Assembly (NCBI GenBank): GCA_005879795.1
Contig: VBKJ01000129.1
Span: forward strand, 1,931 to 65,930
From: Deltaproteobacteria bacterium
Lineage (GTDB): Bacteria > Desulfobacterota > Binatia > DP-6
Reading direction: 5' to 3'
DNA: 64,000 nucleotides
The position numbers and the translations under genes were made by a program. Shown one piece after another: positions 31,629-36,296 of the stretch (positions are counted from its first letter, which is position 1; the number at the start of each line of letters is the position of its first letter). The notes under the pieces are model-generated. The model was not told the origin of the DNA, ran no database searches, and was given only the letters and a program-made list of their open reading frames with translations.

Positions 31629-32806
31629 CCCACCCCGCGCACTGGAAGCCCGAGCTCGCCGCGCGCGGGGTGCGCCTCGACGCGAGCGCGGCGCGCCTGG
31701 GCGCCGGTGACACGGCGCGCCCCCTCGAGCTCGCCCTGCTCGACGACGTCCGCGTCGGCGTCCCGATCGACGAGCGCTCCCCATTCGTCCTCTTCGCCGA
31801 CAGCGCCCGGCACTTCCTCGTGCGCCGCGATCCGGGCGGGGCCGAGAGCGCGCGCGTCGAGGTGCGGCCCATCCCGCGGCCCGGCTTCTACGAGCGCCGC
31901 ACGAGCCGCGGCACGCCCATGGCGCGGATCGCCACCGTGCGCGGCAGCCACCTGCTCGTGAACCCGAGCAGCGCGTGCGGCTTCAGCGTGCGCGGCACGC
32001 CGTGCCGCTTCTGTGTCGAGGGTGCGCGCGTCTCCGCCGAGCGCGACGCGGTCCCGGTGGCCGACGTCCTCGAGGTCGTGCGCGCCGCGTTCGACGAGGG
32101 CGCGTGCGAGCTGGTGTACTTCAACACCAGCCACTTCGAGAGCGAGGACGGCGGCATCGCCTTCCTCGCCCCCTACATCGAGGCGGTGCGCCGGCACTTC
32201 GACACGCTGATCGCGACCCAGGTCCATCCGCCCCGCGCGACCCACTGGATCGACGAGACCTACGCCATGGGGGTCGACGCGCTCAGCTACAACCTCGAGA
32301 TCTTCGACCCCGACGTGTTGAACCGCCACTGCATCGGGCGCGCACGCTACATCGGGCGCGAGCGCTACCTCGAGTCCCTGGCGCACGCCGCCAGGGTGTT
32401 CCCGAGCGGCACGGTGTGGAGCGACCTGGTGCTCGGCCTCGAGCCCGCGGACTCGACGATCGCCGGCATCGACGCGCTGGTCGAGATGGGGGTGGTGCCG
32501 GTGGCCGCCCTCCTGCGGGGCGAGCACCCGCTGCCCGCGCCGGCCGACGTGGCGCCCCTGCTCGCGCACCTCTACCGCGCCGTCAAGCGCCGCGGCATCA
32601 ACATGGGCTGGGTGCGCGACCTGGCGCTCGGCATCACGCCCCTCGAGGCGCGTCACTTCGCCGGCGACGGCGCCCGCCTCGCGGTGACCGTCCAGCAGCT
32701 CACCCGCTCGCGCCTGGGCGCGCTCGCGGCGCGCGGCCTCGCCCGCTTCCGCCGCCGCCTGCGCGTGCGCAAGGTGAGCGAGTCGTTCGACGCCGCGCAC
32801 CTGTAG
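31625..32806 (+). CDS. putative Fe-S (radical-SAM-like?) TIM-barrel enzyme with an atypical Cx8Cx2C motif
   Basis: SSACGFSVRGTPCRFCVEG near the N-terminus of a ~390-aa alpha/beta protein; GTG overlaps the upstream stop; family not recognised. Confidence 0.45.
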   Translation: MTHPAHWKPELAARGVRLDASAARLGAGDTARPLELALLDDVRVGVPIDERSPFVLFADSARHFLVRRDPGGAESARVEVRPIPRPGFYERRTSRGTPMARIATVRGSHLLVNPSSACGFSVRGTPCRFCVEGARVSAERDAVPVADVLEVVRAAFDEGACELVYFNTSHFESEDGGIAFLAPYIEAVRRHFDTLIATQVHPPRATHWIDETYAMGVDALSYNLEIFDPDVLNRHCIGRARYIGRERYLESLAHAARVFPSGTVWSDLVLGLEPADSTIAGIDALVEMGVVPVAALLRGEHPLPAPADVAPLLAHLYRAVKRRGINMGWVRDLALGITPLEARHFAGDGARLAVTVQQLTRSRLGALAARGLARFRRRLRVRKVSESFDAAHL

Positions 32807-34281
32807 TGGCTCGCCCGCAAGAGCGGCAGCACGCGCCGGCCGACGTCGTCATCGACACCCGGCCGCTGTGGCGCATCCTCGCCGAGCGCACCTACCGGCC
32901 GGTCGTGCTGGCGATGGGGCTCCTCGGCTTCCTCGCGCTACGCGCCATGGCGCCGCCCGCCGGTCTCTCGGCCGCCGGGCAGAGCGCGCTCGCCATCTTC
33001 GCCCTCTGCCTCGTCTACTGGGTGACGAACGTCATCCCGCTCATGGTGACGAGCCTGCTCGCCATGGTGCTCCTGCCGACCACGGGTGCGCTGCCCGCCC
33101 GGGACACCTACGCGCTCTTCGGCAACGAGGCGGTCTTCTTCATCCTGGGCGCCTTCATCCTCGCCGCCTCGCTCATGAAGTGCGGGCTCTCGACCCGGAT
33201 CGCGATCGCCGTGCTGCGCCGCTTCGGCCACACGCCGCGCGCGCTCCTCCTCTCGCTCTTCCTGATGAACGCCTTCATGGCGTTCTTCATGTCGGAGCAC
33301 GCGGTCGCCGCCATGACCTTCCCGATCACGGTCGAGATCGCGCGCGTGCTCCGCCTGCCGCGCCAGCAGAGCAACTACGGGCGCGCCCTCTTCCTCGCCA
33401 TGGCGTGGGGCACGCAGATCGGCGGCATCGCGACCCTCCTCGGCGGCGGACGGGCGCCGCTCGCGCTCGGCATGCTGCGCGACTTCAACGGCCAGACCTA
33501 CAGCTTCGCCCAGTGGACGCTCGCCGCCTGGCCGCTGGTGGCGGTGCTGCTGGCGGTGGGCTGGCAGGTGATCGTGCGCTTCTTCCCGATCGACATCACC
33601 TCCGTGCGCGACGCCGACGTCGTCATCGCGGAGAAGGCGCTCCGCCTGGGACGGCCCTCGGGCAAGGAGAAGTCGATCGCCCTGGTGATGCTCGGCACCC
33701 TCGCCGCCTGGATCGTCGGGGGCGAGGAGTTCGGGCTCGCCACCATCGCGCTCGGCGCGGTGGTGCTCCTCTTCGTCCTGGACCTCCTCAGCTGGCGCGA
33801 CATCGAGCAGTACGTGAACTGGGGCGTGCTCCTCATGTACGGCGGCGCGATCGCGCTCGGCTCGGCCCTCAACCGCTCGGGGGCCTCGACCTTCATCGCG
33901 AGCGTCACCGTGAGCCGCTGGGCGCACAGCCCGCTGGCCGTCGTCGCCATGATCTCCGCCCTGGGCATCCTGCTGACCGAAGCGATGAGCCACTCGGCGG
34001 TGGTCGCGCTGCTCATGCCGGTGGCCCTCGGCATCGCGGCGCAGTTCGGGATCGATCCGCGCGTCATGGCGCCGGCGGTGGCGCTGCCCGCGGGGCTCGC
34101 CTTCACGCTGCCCGTCGGCACGCCCGGGAACGCGATCGCGTACTCGTCGGGCTATCTCCGCCTGCGCGACATGCTCGTGCCGGGCTCGGTCATGGTGGTG
34201 ATCGCGTGGGCAGCGTTCAACCTGGTGGCGCGGTACTACTGGCCGCTGATCGGGCTCACGCTCGCCGCGCCGCGGCCGTGA
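32806..34281 (+). CDS. DASS/SLC13-family anion:Na+ symporter (sulfate/thiosulfate/dicarboxylate-type)
   Basis: Polytopic protein with duplicated halves and conserved SNT-like motifs (TNVIPLMVTS, TLPVGTPGNAIAY); start uncertain (GTG 32806 or ATG ~32913). Confidence 0.75.
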   Translation: MARPQERQHAPADVVIDTRPLWRILAERTYRPVVLAMGLLGFLALRAMAPPAGLSAAGQSALAIFALCLVYWVTNVIPLMVTSLLAMVLLPTTGALPARDTYALFGNEAVFFILGAFILAASLMKCGLSTRIAIAVLRRFGHTPRALLLSLFLMNAFMAFFMSEHAVAAMTFPITVEIARVLRLPRQQSNYGRALFLAMAWGTQIGGIATLLGGGRAPLALGMLRDFNGQTYSFAQWTLAAWPLVAVLLAVGWQVIVRFFPIDITSVRDADVVIAEKALRLGRPSGKEKSIALVMLGTLAAWIVGGEEFGLATIALGAVVLLFVLDLLSWRDIEQYVNWGVLLMYGGAIALGSALNRSGASTFIASVTVSRWAHSPLAVVAMISALGILLTEAMSHSAVVALLMPVALGIAAQFGIDPRVMAPAVALPAGLAFTLPVGTPGNAIAYSSGYLRLRDMLVPGSVMVVIAWAAFNLVARYYWPLIGLTLAAPRP

Positions 34282-34336
34282 AGTTGCCTCGCCCCTTCGA
34301 CCACCACTCGCCTCTCAGCCTGGTTTGTCGCTACGA

Positions 34337-34353
34337 TCTATATCGGGTATAGA
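34337..34353. promoter_or_regulatory. perfect inverted repeat TCTATA-tcggg-TATAGA, candidate VapB operator/-10 region
   Basis: Palindrome 15 nt upstream of the vapB ATG; AbrB/MazE-type antitoxins autoregulate at such sites. Confidence 0.4.
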
Positions 34354-34367
34354 CTTGCGGTGAGCGC

Positions 34368-34604
34368 ATGAGCACGAGAGCGAAGCTGTTCTGGAACGGA
34401 CGCAGCCAGGCGGTCAGGCTGCCGAAGGAGTTCCGCTTCAGCGGCGACGAGGTCCTCATCCGCCGGGCGAACGACAAGGTGATCCTCGAGCCCGTTCACA
34501 AGGGCTGGGACGATACCTTCTGGGCCTGCTTCGGTAAGCTCTCGGACGACGTCGAGCGGACCGAGTTCGTGGCGAGCGAGCGCCGCGAGGATGCCTTCCC
34601 CTGA
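34368..34604 (+). CDS. vapB: VapB antitoxin (AbrB/SpoVT-MazE fold)
   Basis: 78 aa with a swapped-hairpin N-terminus (AKLFWNGRSQAVRLPKEFRF); overlaps vapC. Confidence 0.8.
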   Translation: MSTRAKLFWNGRSQAVRLPKEFRFSGDEVLIRRANDKVILEPVHKGWDDTFWACFGKLSDDVERTEFVASERREDAFP

Positions 34605-35002
34605 GGTACCTGCTCGACACCAACATCTGCATCTACGCCCTGAAGCGCCGGCCGCCCGAGGTTCTGAGTCGGCTCGAGCGCCTCACGCCCGCCGACGTCG
34701 CCGTGAGCGCCGTGACCGCGGCCGAGCTCAGGTTCGGGGCGAGCAAGAGCTCCGCTCCGGAGCGGAATCATCGCGTGCTCGACGTCTTCCTCGGGCACAT
34801 CAACGTGCTCGCCTTCGACGTCGATGCCGCGACGAGCTATGGACGGGTGCGCGCCCATCTCGAGCGACGGGGGCGTCCGATCGGCGCGATGGACACGCTG
34901 ATCGCCGCCCACGCGCTCTCCCTCGGGGCGACGCTCGTCTCGAACAACGTCCGTGAGTTCAAACGGGTCCCGAGATTGCGGTGCGAGAACTGGGTCAGTT
35001 AG
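34601..35002 (+). CDS. vapC: VapC PIN-domain toxin (apparent CTG start)
   Basis: [13 protein letters not shown]...TAAEL...[13 protein letters not shown] are the PIN acidic residues; no in-frame ATG/GTG/TTG upstream of the catalytic Asp; CTG at 34601 overlaps the vapB TGA. Confidence 0.7.
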
Positions 35003-35036
35003 CCCGAACGGCCCGACATCCGAGAAAGGATCCTCG

Positions 35037-36296
35037 ATGCCCGATCTGATCCCTCCCCACGGCGGCCTGACCGAGCCCGTCTCCCTGACCGTCCCCGCGC
35101 ACGAGGTGGAGCGGTTCCGGGCGGAGGCGGCGCGCCTCGCCAGGGTGCCGGTCTCCGACTCCGACCTCTCGAGCGTCTATCGCTTCGGCGACGGCGGGCT
35201 CTCCCCGCTCACCGGCCCGATGGACGCGGCCACCTACCAGCGCGTCCTCGACGAGTGCGTGATCGAGCGCGGCGGCCGGCTCTACGCCTGGACGATCCCG
35301 ATCGCGCTGCCCGTGACGGCGGAGCTGGCGCGGAAGCTCGGGCGCGGAGAGACCGTCGCGCTGACCAACAGCGCCGGCGCCGTGGTCGCGACCCTCGCCA
35401 TCAGCGACGTCTACCCGTGGGACAAGGCGAAGTACCTGCGCAGCGTCTACGGCACCGAGCGCACCGACCATCCCGGCGCCGACATGGTGCTCAAGGGCGA
35501 CGCCGACAGGACGCACCTCCTCGGCGGCCGGCTGCGCGTGCTCCCGCAGCCGACGCACCCCGCGTTCGGGAGGTACGTGCTCACGCCGCGCGAGGTGCGC
35601 CGCCTGCTCGCCGCCAGGGGCTGGGACCGCGTGGTCGCCTTCCAGACCCGCAATCCGCTCCACCGCGCGCACGAGTATGCGCTCGTCTACGGGCTCGAGA
35701 CCCTGCTCCGGGCCGGGCACGACGCGGGCGCGGCTCTCAACCCCCTCATCGGCGAGACCAAGGGCGACGACGTGCACGCCGACGTGCGCATGCGGACCTA
35801 CGAGGCGCTCATCGAGACGCGCGCCCTCGGCGAGGGCGACAGCGATCCCACGCTCTGGGGGCCGCGCGGCGAGTCGGTGCCCGACCGGGTCATCCTCCTC
35901 GGCCTCGACATCAAGATGTTCTACGCCGGCCCGAAGGAGGCGGTGATGCACGGCATATACCGGCAGAACTTCGGCTTCACCGACCTGGTCGTCGGCCGCA
36001 AGCACGCGGATGCGCCCTTCCACGACGGCACGCCCATCTGGGGCGACTTCGACGCGCAGGAGGTCTTCGGCTCGCTCCGGGGCGACCTCGGGATCAAGCC
36101 CGTCAAGGTCGGCTTCGCCGCCTACTACGAGTCGGTCGGGCGCGTCGACCTGATGGACAACCATCCCGGCGAGAAGCCGCTCACCATCTCCGGCAAGGAC
36201 GTGCGCAGGGCGCTCCTCGAGGGCCGCGAGGTGGACCCGCGCATCATGCGGCCGAGCACGGCGCGGATCCTCGCGGCGGCGATGACCGGGGGCTGA
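35037..36296 (+). CDS. sat: sulfate adenylyltransferase (ATP sulfurylase)
   Basis: [11 protein letters not shown] and GRKHAD motifs; full-length match. Confidence 0.9.

What the first reader, a model, noticed from the sequence alone, without database searches (positions are those of the whole stretch)
34538..34720. VapC toxin appears to initiate at CTG
After an in-frame TAA at ~34535 the vapC frame is open. It contains no ATG/GTG/TTG before the conserved N-terminus RYLLDTN, which includes the first catalytic Asp. The only plausible initiator is the CTG at 34601 overlapping the vapB TGA. It would give the textbook MRYLLDTNI start. The first ATG (34703) would delete the catalytic Asp.
Basis: seen in the sequence. 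Interest (0 to 1): 0.5.

Follow-up and report, generated by a model that had tools for sequence, protein, structure and literature searches.

The report
VapC toxin gene lacking canonical start
A bacterial toxin gene (vapC, a nuclease that cuts initiator tRNA) has lost its normal start codon yet is still kept intact by selection, so it is most likely translated weakly from a rare CTG start that overlaps the stop codon of its antitoxin gene. This is an unusual but not unprecedented way to keep a toxin at a low level.

Summary
vapB (34368-34604) ends in TGA. The PIN/VapC frame is open from 34538 and has no ATG, GTG or TTG before the catalytic Asp codon (34616-18). A CTG at 34601 forms a CTGA overlap with the vapB stop.

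It is not a sequencing error. The same C is present in all 35 independent soil-metagenome contigs that cover the junction, including haplotypes 6-8% divergent in DNA.

Across those CTGA haplotypes vapC stays intact. dN/dS is 0.12 at dS 0.30. For the 33 N-terminal codons upstream of the GTG it is 0.08, with 7 synonymous and 2 non-synonymous changes (p = 0.002). So the N-terminus is translated.

All 79 evaluable species-level homologues have a canonical start. The nearest outgroups have a GTGA junction or a 4-nt overlap.

Some strains carry derived alleles that recreate a canonical start: C34610T gives TTG, and loss of T34607 brings ATG 34591 into frame. Others have deleted the toxin.

Best reading (about 0.55): weak initiation at CUG 34601, coupled to vapB termination, which attenuates the toxin. 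Rivals are a silenced decaying gene, a start at CTG 34610, and a -1 frameshift fusion. Interest is moderate.

The parts
34337..34353 (.). Inverted repeat TCTATA-N5-TATAGA, 15 nt upstream of the vapB ATG. Candidate VapB/VapBC operator.
   Evidence: perfect 6-nt arms, 5-nt spacer. The function is inferred from the usual autoregulation of type II TA operons and was not tested.
34368..34604 (+). vapB antitoxin gene (78 aa, AbrB/MazE/SpoVT fold), ATG start, TGA stop at 34602-34604.
   Evidence: PF04014, E = 1.3e-10; NF040493, 68.8 bits, cut-off 60. dN/dS 0.02-0.07 within the clade.
34535..34537 (+). In-frame TAA that closes the vapC frame upstream.
34587..34591 (+). Shine-Dalgarno-like GAGGA inside the vapB 3' end, 9-10 nt upstream of CTG 34601.
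   Evidence: It is kept in the divergent haplotypes (GAGGAC in L101-L110) but is GAAGA in outgroup L098. Its function is inferred.
34591..34593 (+). ATG in the +1 frame of vapB. It becomes the vapC start (MPSPEDLLDTN..., 136 aa) in strains that lack T34607.
   Evidence: L096, L111-L118; proteins P0176, P0185, P0186.
34601..34604 (+). CTGA junction. Candidate CUG initiation codon (34601-03) overlapping the vapB TGA (34602-04). 34601 is also the third base of the last vapB codon, CCC (Pro).
   Evidence: Invariant in 35 of 35 junction-covering contigs. It aligns with the ATG/GTG/TTG of 76 of 80 homologues.
34601..35002 (+). Full-length vapC ORF (133 codons plus TAG), a PIN-domain tRNA(fMet)-specific endonuclease.
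   Evidence: dN/dS 0.12 at dS 0.30.
34607..34607 (+). T that is deleted in a sub-lineage, bringing ATG 34591 into the vapC frame.
   Evidence: 9 contigs.
34610..34612 (+). Second in-frame CTG (Leu 4), an alternative near-cognate start. It is TTG (C34610T) in other strains, whose gene is called as a 130-aa MLDTN... protein.
   Evidence: (P0001).
34616..34618 (+). GAC, the first catalytic Asp of the PIN domain (equivalent to D7 of Shigella VapC).
   Evidence: alignment to 3TND.
34703..34705 (+). GTG, the first canonical in-frame start. Gene callers use it and obtain a 99-aa truncated PIN without the catalytic Asp.
   Evidence: It is not conserved: it is GTC in the L091 and L092/L101 haplotypes.

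Best explanation
This is a chromosomal vapBC type II toxin-antitoxin operon. The toxin is a PIN-domain nuclease of the initiator-tRNA-cleaving VapC family.

In the ancestor of this soil-bacterial clade, the normal start codon of vapC changed to CTG. That start was the [A/G]TG of the [A/G]TGA overlap with the vapB stop.

The full-length toxin, including its catalytic Asp, is still made, but weakly. Ribosomes that finish vapB at UGA 34602-04 re-initiate on the overlapping near-cognate CUG 34601. New ribosomes guided by the GAGGA 9-10 nt upstream may do the same. Either way fMet-tRNA is used, giving M-R-Y-L-L-D-T-N.

The effect is a strongly attenuated toxin:antitoxin translation ratio.

Shown here: the sequence configuration, that it is real in many independent assemblies, family membership, purifying selection on the N-terminal codons, and uniqueness among homologues. 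Inferred: that 34601 is the codon used, the coupling mechanism, and the attenuation.
For: 1. The junction is real. It is identical in 35 of 35 independent contigs that cover it.

2. The CTGA is old and shared by descent. Three haplotype groups, 6-8% divergent in DNA, all carry it: the window type, L095/L097, and L092/L101-110. In the L101 type the nearest differences lie only 9 nt upstream (34592) and 8 nt downstream (34609), which argues against a recombination patch.

3. vapC has been under purifying selection among CTGA carriers. For the whole gene dN/dS is 0.12 at dS 0.30. For the 33 codons 34604-34702, which have no canonical start upstream, it is 0.08, with 7 synonymous and 2 non-synonymous changes (binomial p = 0.0019). 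The other two frames give 2 and 7. There are no stops or frameshifts.

4. CTG 34601 sits exactly where 66 ATG, 9 GTG and 1 TTG sit in 80 homologous loci, 69 of them as NTGA overlaps with vapB. Outgroup L098 has GTGA. The P0002/P0122 contig has a 4-nt overlap and starts MKYLLDTN.

5. The internal canonical starts are not conserved. GTG 34703 is GTC in two haplotypes, and GTG 34661 exists only in others. All these changes are synonymous. So no truncated product is being maintained.

6. Precedents exist. CUG initiates at 1-2% of AUG in E. coli reporters (bioRxiv 10.1101/063800). A weaker GTG in a GTGA overlap was shown experimentally to hold a haloarchaeal VapC down (PMC13488343). Coupling at -4 overlaps is well established (PMC12548453).

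7. The catalytic residues are all intact.
Against: - There is no direct evidence of protein or of the N-terminus.
- CUG is a very poor start, so expression might be negligible.
- 79 of 79 homologues keep a canonical start, which means loss is normally selected against or marks dying genes.
- In the same population and at the same chromosomal site, some strains carry vapC deletions: L096 (27 codons), L091 (6 codons), and L099 and L100 (vapB'-'vapC fusions). That fits a locus in decay.
- Two derived alleles that recreate a canonical start are common on the youngest haplotype. This suggests the CTG-only state is sub-optimal.
- CTG 34610 and a -1 slip on C_CCC_UGA could also deliver the N-terminus.
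- The local hairpin that would enforce coupling is not statistically supported (z = +0.79).
- The selection test rests on three haplotype groups only.
Confidence: 0.55

Rival explanations
1. Silenced, decaying toxin. The ATG/GTG-to-CTG change is a loss-of-function mutation that effectively switches vapC off. The ORF is a young pseudogene or orphan, vapB survives as a regulator or anti-addiction module, and deletions are gradually removing the remnant.
For: - 79 of 79 homologues keep a canonical start.
- CUG gives only 1-2% of AUG.
- Related strains at the same site show a 27-codon deletion (L096), a 6-codon deletion (L091), and large vapB'-'vapC deletion fusions (L099, L100; proteins P0124, P0126).
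- vapB is more constrained (dN/dS 0.02-0.07) than vapC (0.06-0.20).
Against: - vapC dN/dS is 0.12 over dS 0.30 among CTGA carriers, and 0.08 in the very codons that would be untranslated.
- There are no stops or frameshifts in three divergent haplotype groups seen in about 25 contigs. An untranslated ORF would drift at dN/dS near 1.
- All four catalytic residues are intact.
Confidence: 0.2
2. Non-canonical initiation occurs, but at the second CTG (34610) or another nearby codon rather than at 34601. This would give M-L-D-T-N..., the same N-terminus as the TTG allele.
For: - C34610T alleles are called as intact 130-aa MLDTN proteins on many contigs (P0001 on 18, P0182 on 8).
- An independent Thermoanaerobaculia locus (L080) has CTGA plus TTG at exactly this Leu codon.
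- A scanning post-termination ribosome could reach 34610, 6 nt past the stop (model reviewed in PMC12548453).
- The delT allele shows that residues before LLDTN are replaceable.
Against: - The SD geometry is poor for 34610. GAGGA is 18 nt upstream, and GAGG 34603-06 is only 3 nt upstream.
- Homologues start at the position of 34601 in 76 of 80 cases.
- R-Y at 34604-09 is kept in all intact CTG and TTG haplotypes, with one synonymous change, TAC to TAT. That is weak evidence.
Confidence: 0.1
3. A -1 ribosomal frameshift at the end of vapB. With UGA in the A site, P-site tRNA-Pro slips from CCC (34599-601) back to CCC (34598-600) and reads CUG AGG..., making a 210-aa VapB-VapC fusion (...[13 protein letters not shown]...).
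For: - The sequence T TCC CCT GA offers perfect re-pairing in the -1 frame.
- Relative to the outgroups (vapB ending ...AFS; L098 has TCG TGA), the clade changed both the first and third base of the last codon to create the CCCC run.
- CCC_TGA is a documented slippery, pause-prone context in E. coli, but in the +1 direction (cited in PMC10861913).
- TTCCCCTGA is invariant in all contigs.
Against: - The documented slip at CCC_TGA is +1, which here enters a non-vapC frame.
- No stimulatory downstream structure is supported (z = +0.79).
- There is no canonical X_XXY_YYZ heptamer.
- No VapB-VapC fusion architecture was seen among the homologues examined.
- The independent CTGA case L080 has ATC TGA, which is not slippery.
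Confidence: 0.07
4. Sequencing or assembly error at 34601, the true base being A, G or T.
For: None beyond prior expectation. A single-base change would restore a normal NTGA junction and would be synonymous in vapB.
Against: 35 of 35 independently assembled contigs from JGI and ENA projects and many samples have C at this position, including divergent haplotypes.
Confidence: 0.01

Closest known systems
Shigella flexneri pMYSH6000 / Salmonella LT2 VapBC (MvpAT), tRNA(fMet)-specific endonuclease (PDB 3TND, 6SD6, 6IFC)
   Same: - The toxin family is the same: E = 3e-35 over the full length, with the D7/E42/D98/E119 equivalents conserved.
- The antitoxin is an AbrB/MazE-type VapB encoded upstream.
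- The operon layout is the same, with the toxin start overlapping the antitoxin stop.
   Different: - The window's toxin has CTG where the family has ATG/GTG/TTG.
- The locus is chromosomal, in an uncultured high-GC soil bacterium.
- Activity on tRNA(fMet) is inferred from homology only.
Haloarchaeal NgVapBC1 (Natrinema gari), GTGA overlap with a weak toxin start codon (PMC13488343)
   Same: - vapB has ATG and vapC has a weaker start within a -4 nt stop/start overlap.
- Experiments there show that the weak start plus the overlap keep toxin output low. This is the same regulatory logic proposed here.
   Different: - There the weak codon is canonical GTG and is conserved across homologues.
- Here it is the near-cognate CTG, roughly 10-fold or more weaker in E. 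coli assays, and it is unique to one clade.
- That system is archaeal and this one is bacterial.
Rare bacterial non-canonical start codons (CTG, ATT, ATC, ATA of translation table 11; for example infC AUU)
   Same: A near-cognate codon is used with initiator tRNA at low efficiency. CTG is occasionally annotated as a start in model genomes.
   Different: Most annotated CTG starts lack evolutionary or proteomic support. Here there is population-genetic support that the downstream codons are translated, but no proteomic proof.
CCC_TGA frameshift-prone site (Gurvich et al. 2003, as cited in PMC10861913); prfB-type stop-codon-stimulated slippage
   Same: vapB ends in exactly CCC_TGA, with a slow stop codon in the A site.
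   Different: The known slip is +1, whereas vapC lies in the -1 frame in the window. Only in the delT alleles is vapC in the +1 frame. No stimulators were identified.

Membership tests
VapC, tRNA(fMet)-specific PIN endonuclease (NCBIfam NF047863 / PRK13725) | Sequence match above the curated family cut-off over the full length. | tested here: met
   NF047863 scores 171.5 bits (cut-off 140) over residues 3-132. PF01850 PIN gives E = 8e-20. NF010285 scores 130.2, below its cut-off of 143.
VapC, tRNA(fMet)-specific PIN endonuclease (NCBIfam NF047863 / PRK13725) | Four conserved acidic active-site residues of the PIN domain (D7, E42, D98, E119 in Shigella VapC). | tested here: met
   In the alignment to 3TND all four are conserved: D in LLDTN, E in AAELRF, D in AMDTLI and E in VREF. 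The first Asp is present only if translation starts upstream of 34616.
VapC, tRNA(fMet)-specific PIN endonuclease (NCBIfam NF047863 / PRK13725) | Cleaves initiator tRNA in the anticodon stem-loop. | not testable with these tools
   Biochemical property, inferred from 45-50% identity to characterised enzymes.
Type II toxin-antitoxin operon (vapBC) | Antitoxin gene immediately upstream and co-directional, with stop/start overlap or a very short gap. | tested here: met
   vapB 34368-34604 is an AbrB/MazE-fold VapB (NF040493, 68.8 bits, cut-off 60). The 4-nt overlap geometry is kept as CTGA.
Type II toxin-antitoxin operon (vapBC) | The toxin gene has a functional translation start (ATG/GTG/TTG) upstream of the catalytic core. 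| tested here: not met
   There is no canonical start between TAA 34535 and GTG 34703. By contrast, 79 of 79 homologues have one. Translation of the N-terminal codons is nevertheless supported by dN/dS of 0.08.
Type II toxin-antitoxin operon (vapBC) | The toxin is growth-inhibitory and is neutralised by the cognate antitoxin. | not testable with these tools
   Requires expression assays.
Programmed -1 ribosomal frameshift site | A slippery sequence allowing re-pairing in the -1 frame. | tested here: inconclusive
   C_CCC_UGA allows P-site tRNA-Pro to re-pair. It is not an X_XXY_YYZ heptamer.
Programmed -1 ribosomal frameshift site | A downstream stimulatory structure or an upstream SD-like stimulator at the proper spacing. 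| tested here: not met
   The fold of 34570-34690 is no more stable than shuffled sequences (z = +0.79, with 156 of 200 shuffles folding at least as well).

The most novel reading that the evidence does not exclude
The CUG start is an adaptive feature specific to a toxin that destroys initiator tRNA.

VapC-mediated depletion of tRNA(fMet) has been reported to stimulate initiation at elongator codons (Winther & Gerdes 2011, as summarised in PMC3905216). If so, a vapC that starts on CUG would be spared, or even favoured, once VapC becomes active, while ATG-dependent vapB and bulk translation fall. That would give a self-reinforcing, bistable toxin switch.

This would also be a natural case of a gene whose expression depends wholly on termination-reinitiation at a non-canonical codon.
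Probability: 0.06. Interest if true: 0.8.

Novelty: new variant of a known kind. Interest (0 to 1): 0.4.

Why it matters
If VapC really starts at CUG, three things follow.

- It would be a naturally evolved example, supported by population genetics, of a bacterial gene that depends on a near-cognate start in a stop/start overlap. Such a gene is useful for studying termination-reinitiation and start-codon fidelity.
- It would be an extreme case of tuning the toxin:antitoxin ratio through start-codon strength.
- It shows an annotation failure. Gene callers truncate this toxin to 99 or 113 aa without its catalytic Asp, or pick the start according to strain-specific synonymous changes. Similar toxins may therefore be mis-annotated as dead.

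The segregating alleles (CTG-only, TTG, delT/ATG, deletions) also give a snapshot of how a chromosomal TA module is attenuated, repaired or lost.

If vapC is instead a silenced gene, the finding is an ordinary case of TA decay.

Tried and rejected
- **Sequencing error.** Rejected: 35 of 35 independent contigs have C at 34601.
- **A conserved truncated product from GTG 34703.** Rejected: that GTG is GTC in two haplotypes, and GTG 34661 is present only in others. All these differences are synonymous.
- **An N-terminal extension upstream of 34601 in the vapC frame.** Rejected: the frame is closed by TAA 34535, it holds no near-cognate start, and substitutions there follow the vapB frame.
- **+1 frameshift at CCC_TGA.** This leads into a non-vapC frame in the window allele.
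- **A stimulatory or occluding RNA structure at the junction.** Not supported (z = +0.79).
- **Promoter and terminator scan of 34200-35100.** Nothing found.
- **Metagenome DNA pattern scan.** It returned only 4 loci, so most diversity had to come from exact-protein look-ups.
- **DNA for the closest canonical-start outgroup, P0002.** Not retrievable.
- **L030, first suspected of lacking a start.** It has an in-frame TTG 9 codons upstream of the Asp.
- **Literature searches for CTG/CUG starts in vapC or other TA toxins.** No direct precedent found.
- **Winther & Gerdes 2011.** Not held in the library. It is cited only through a review.
- **Allele frequencies from cluster contig counts.** The tools de-duplicate and I fetched by allele, so the counts are only indicative.

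Full report
**1. What is in the sequence**

Region 34368-35002 holds a two-gene operon on the + strand.

- vapB runs from ATG 34368 to TGA 34602-34604. It encodes 78 aa with an AbrB/MazE fold: PF04014 at E = 1.3e-10, and NF040493 at 68.8 bits against a cut-off of 60.
- In the -1 frame relative to vapB, a PIN-domain ORF is open from 34538, just after TAA 34535-37, to TAG 35000-02.
- Its codons from 34598 read CCC CTG(34601) AGG TAC CTG(34610) CTC GAC(34616) ACC AAC, which translates as P L R Y L L D T N.
- No ATG, GTG or TTG occurs in frame until 34703.
- CTG 34601-03 overlaps the vapB stop, giving CTGA.
- Position 34601 is also the third base of vapB's last codon, CCC (Pro). Any substitution there would be silent in vapB and would create ATG, GTG or TTG.

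**2. What the protein is**

- The 133-codon product matches the tRNA(fMet)-specific VapC equivalog NF047863 above its cut-off, at 171.5 against 140 bits.
- It matches Shigella VapC (PDB 3TND) at E = 3e-35 over the full length. The four active-site acids corresponding to D7, E42, D98 and E119 are all conserved.
- A product from GTG 34703 covers only PIN profile positions 33-119 and lacks the first Asp.

**3. It is not an error**

An exact look-up of the VapB protein found it in 86 blocks of public assemblies. I collected 35 independently assembled contigs that cover the junction. They come from JGI and ENA soil metagenomes and from many samples. All have C at 34601. An identical VapB is recorded in NCBI as TMB20686.1, from a MAG labelled Deltaproteobacteria bacterium.

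**4. How unusual it is**

I examined 80 homologous loci, each from a different species-level genome.

- The codon aligned with 34601 is ATG in 66, GTG in 9 and TTG in 1.
- 69 of them form an NTGA overlap with vapB.
- All 79 evaluable loci have a canonical start within 12 codons upstream of the Asp.
- One Thermoanaerobaculia locus (L080) independently has CTGA, but it carries TTG at the Leu codon 9 nt downstream.

The nearest outgroups are canonical.

- L098, whose VapB is 79% identical, has TTC TCG TGA / GTG AAA TAC, a GTGA junction.
- The contig encoding P0002 and P0122 (VapC 80% and VapB 86% identical) has a 4-nt overlap and starts MKYLLDTN.

So the clade ancestor changed [A/G]TG to CTG. It also changed vapB's last residue from Ser to Pro.

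**5. Is the N-terminus still translated?**

Three haplotype groups, 6-8% apart in DNA, all carry CTGA and an intact 133-codon ORF. They are the window type, L095/L097, and L092 with L101-L110.

In the L101 type, the nearest differences flank the junction at 34592 and 34609. A recombination patch is therefore unlikely.

| Nei-Gojobori comparison, window vs L101 | Synonymous | Non-synonymous | dS | dN/dS |
|---|---|---|---|---|
| vapB | 14 | 1 | 0.35 | 0.02 |
| Whole vapC | 25.5 | 10.5 | 0.30 | 0.12 |
| vapC codons 34604-34702 (no canonical start upstream) | 7 | 2 | 0.33 | 0.08 |

For the 33 codons 34604-34702 the binomial p is 0.0019. Read in the other two frames, the same segment gives 2 synonymous and 7 non-synonymous changes.

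The first 24 residues after the CTG codon, [24 protein letters not shown], are identical in all three haplotype groups.

The internal canonical starts vary by synonymous changes: GTG 34703 is GTC in two haplotypes, and GTG 34661 is present only in some. No truncated product is being conserved.

I conclude that the region downstream of 34601 is translated in the vapC frame, by a non-canonical route.

**6. Which route?**

*CUG 34601.* I consider this most likely.
- It occupies the family's start position and forms the 4-nt overlap typical of translationally coupled pairs.
- GAGGA at 34587-91 lies 9-10 nt upstream. It is kept in the divergent haplotypes, whereas outgroup L098 has GAAGA.
- CUG supports 1-2% of AUG initiation in E. 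coli reporters.
- Coupling at -4 overlaps by termination-reinitiation or by RNA unfolding is well documented.
- A weak GTG within a GTGA overlap was shown experimentally to restrain a haloarchaeal VapC.

*CTG 34610.* This is a second candidate. It becomes TTG in other strains, but its SD geometry is poor.

*A -1 P-site slip on C_CCC_UGA.* This would give a VapB-VapC fusion.
- The CCCC run is clade-specific.
- The documented slip at CCC_TGA is +1.
- No stimulatory structure is supported (z = +0.79).

**7. Population context**

Two derived alleles segregate on the window-type haplotype.
- C34610T makes TTG. Gene callers then call a 130-aa protein starting MLDTN (P0001 and P0182, on 18 and 8 contigs).
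- Deletion of T34607 puts the ORF in frame with ATG 34591. This gives an intact 136-aa protein starting MPSPEDLLDTN (P0176, P0185, P0186; 9 contigs examined).

Both recreate a canonical start upstream of the Asp. This hints that the CTG-only state is hypomorphic. My sampling is biased, however, and these alleles are too young to test for selection.

Other strains show decay.
- L096 has a 27-codon in-frame deletion and L091 a 6-codon one.
- At the same chromosomal site, with the ATP sulfurylase gene downstream, L099 and L100 carry large vapB'-'vapC deletion fusions.

The locus therefore shows attenuation, putative repair and loss side by side. That keeps 'silenced toxin' alive as the main rival, although dN/dS argues against it for the intact haplotypes.

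**8. Comparison and novelty**

This is a bona fide member of the initiator-tRNA-cleaving VapBC family. It differs in one defining operational feature, the toxin's start codon.

- CTG starts and weak toxin starts are both known concepts.
- Literature searches found no described vapC or other type II toxin with a CTG start.
- I classify it as a new variant of a known kind, of moderate interest.

The most novel reading not excluded is a feedback loop. VapC depletes tRNA(fMet), and such depletion is reported to stimulate initiation at elongator codons (review PMC3905216). A CUG-started vapC could then escape its own inhibition. I give this about 6%.

**9. Verdict**

Non-canonical translation of full-length VapC is well supported by evolution. 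The use of CUG 34601 specifically is the best inference but is unproven.
- Confidence in the best explanation is 0.55, and interest is 0.4.

Noticed in passing
L099 96-407; L100 698-886 (same synteny as window 34368-35002): Related strains carry large deletions at the same chromosomal site. These fuse the 5' part of vapB in frame to the 3' end of vapC, giving 103-aa and 62-aa ORFs that end in ...ENWVS. The junction and the toxin core are removed.
   Followed up: partly
L096 (window-equivalent 34778-34858); L091 (34760-34777): In-frame internal deletions of 27 and 6 codons in vapC occur in otherwise near-identical or recombinant haplotypes. L091 looks like a mosaic, or an assembly chimera, of the window-type vapB and a divergent vapC.
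   Followed up: partly
L080 1263-1899 (Thermoanaerobaculia MAG JBGAGQ010000017.1): This is an independent CTGA junction in a 55%-identical vapBC (ATC TGA / CTG ATC TAC TTG CTC GAT). It has TTG at the Leu codon just before LD, so the likely product starts MLDTN, mirroring the window clade's C34610T allele.
   Followed up: partly
window 34337-34353: A perfect inverted repeat, TCTATA-N5-TATAGA, lies 15 nt upstream of the vapB ATG. It is a likely VapB operator. A related motif (ATATCGGGCATAGA) is present upstream of the decayed loci L099 and L100.
   Followed up: no
window 34599-34604 and ORF 34591-34956 (+): vapB ends in CCC_TGA, a motif cited as +1 frameshift-prone in E. coli. The +1 frame stays open for about 117 codons. 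In the delT34607 alleles, that +1 frame is the vapC frame.
   Followed up: partly
window 31975-34281 and 35038-36296: The vapBC pair sits between a Na+/sulfate symporter-type gene (PF00939/PF03600) and an ATP sulfurylase gene (PF14306/PF01747). It therefore interrupts what looks like a sulfate-assimilation gene neighbourhood.
   Followed up: no
L093 (ENA CRIT18-1 scaffold_465719), window-equivalent 34607-35002: This contig has the 1-nt deletion plus extra changes (MPSPEDVLDTN) and then diverges completely after about 34868. It is probably a chimeric or rearranged assembly, and I did not use it for inference.
   Followed up: no
window 34661-34663 versus L092, L095, L097, L091: Gene callers pick strain-specific internal starts created by synonymous changes (GTT to GTG at 34661 gives 113-aa calls; GTG 34703 gives 99-aa calls). 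The same toxin is therefore stored in databases as 99-, 113-, 130- and 136-aa proteins.
   Followed up: yes
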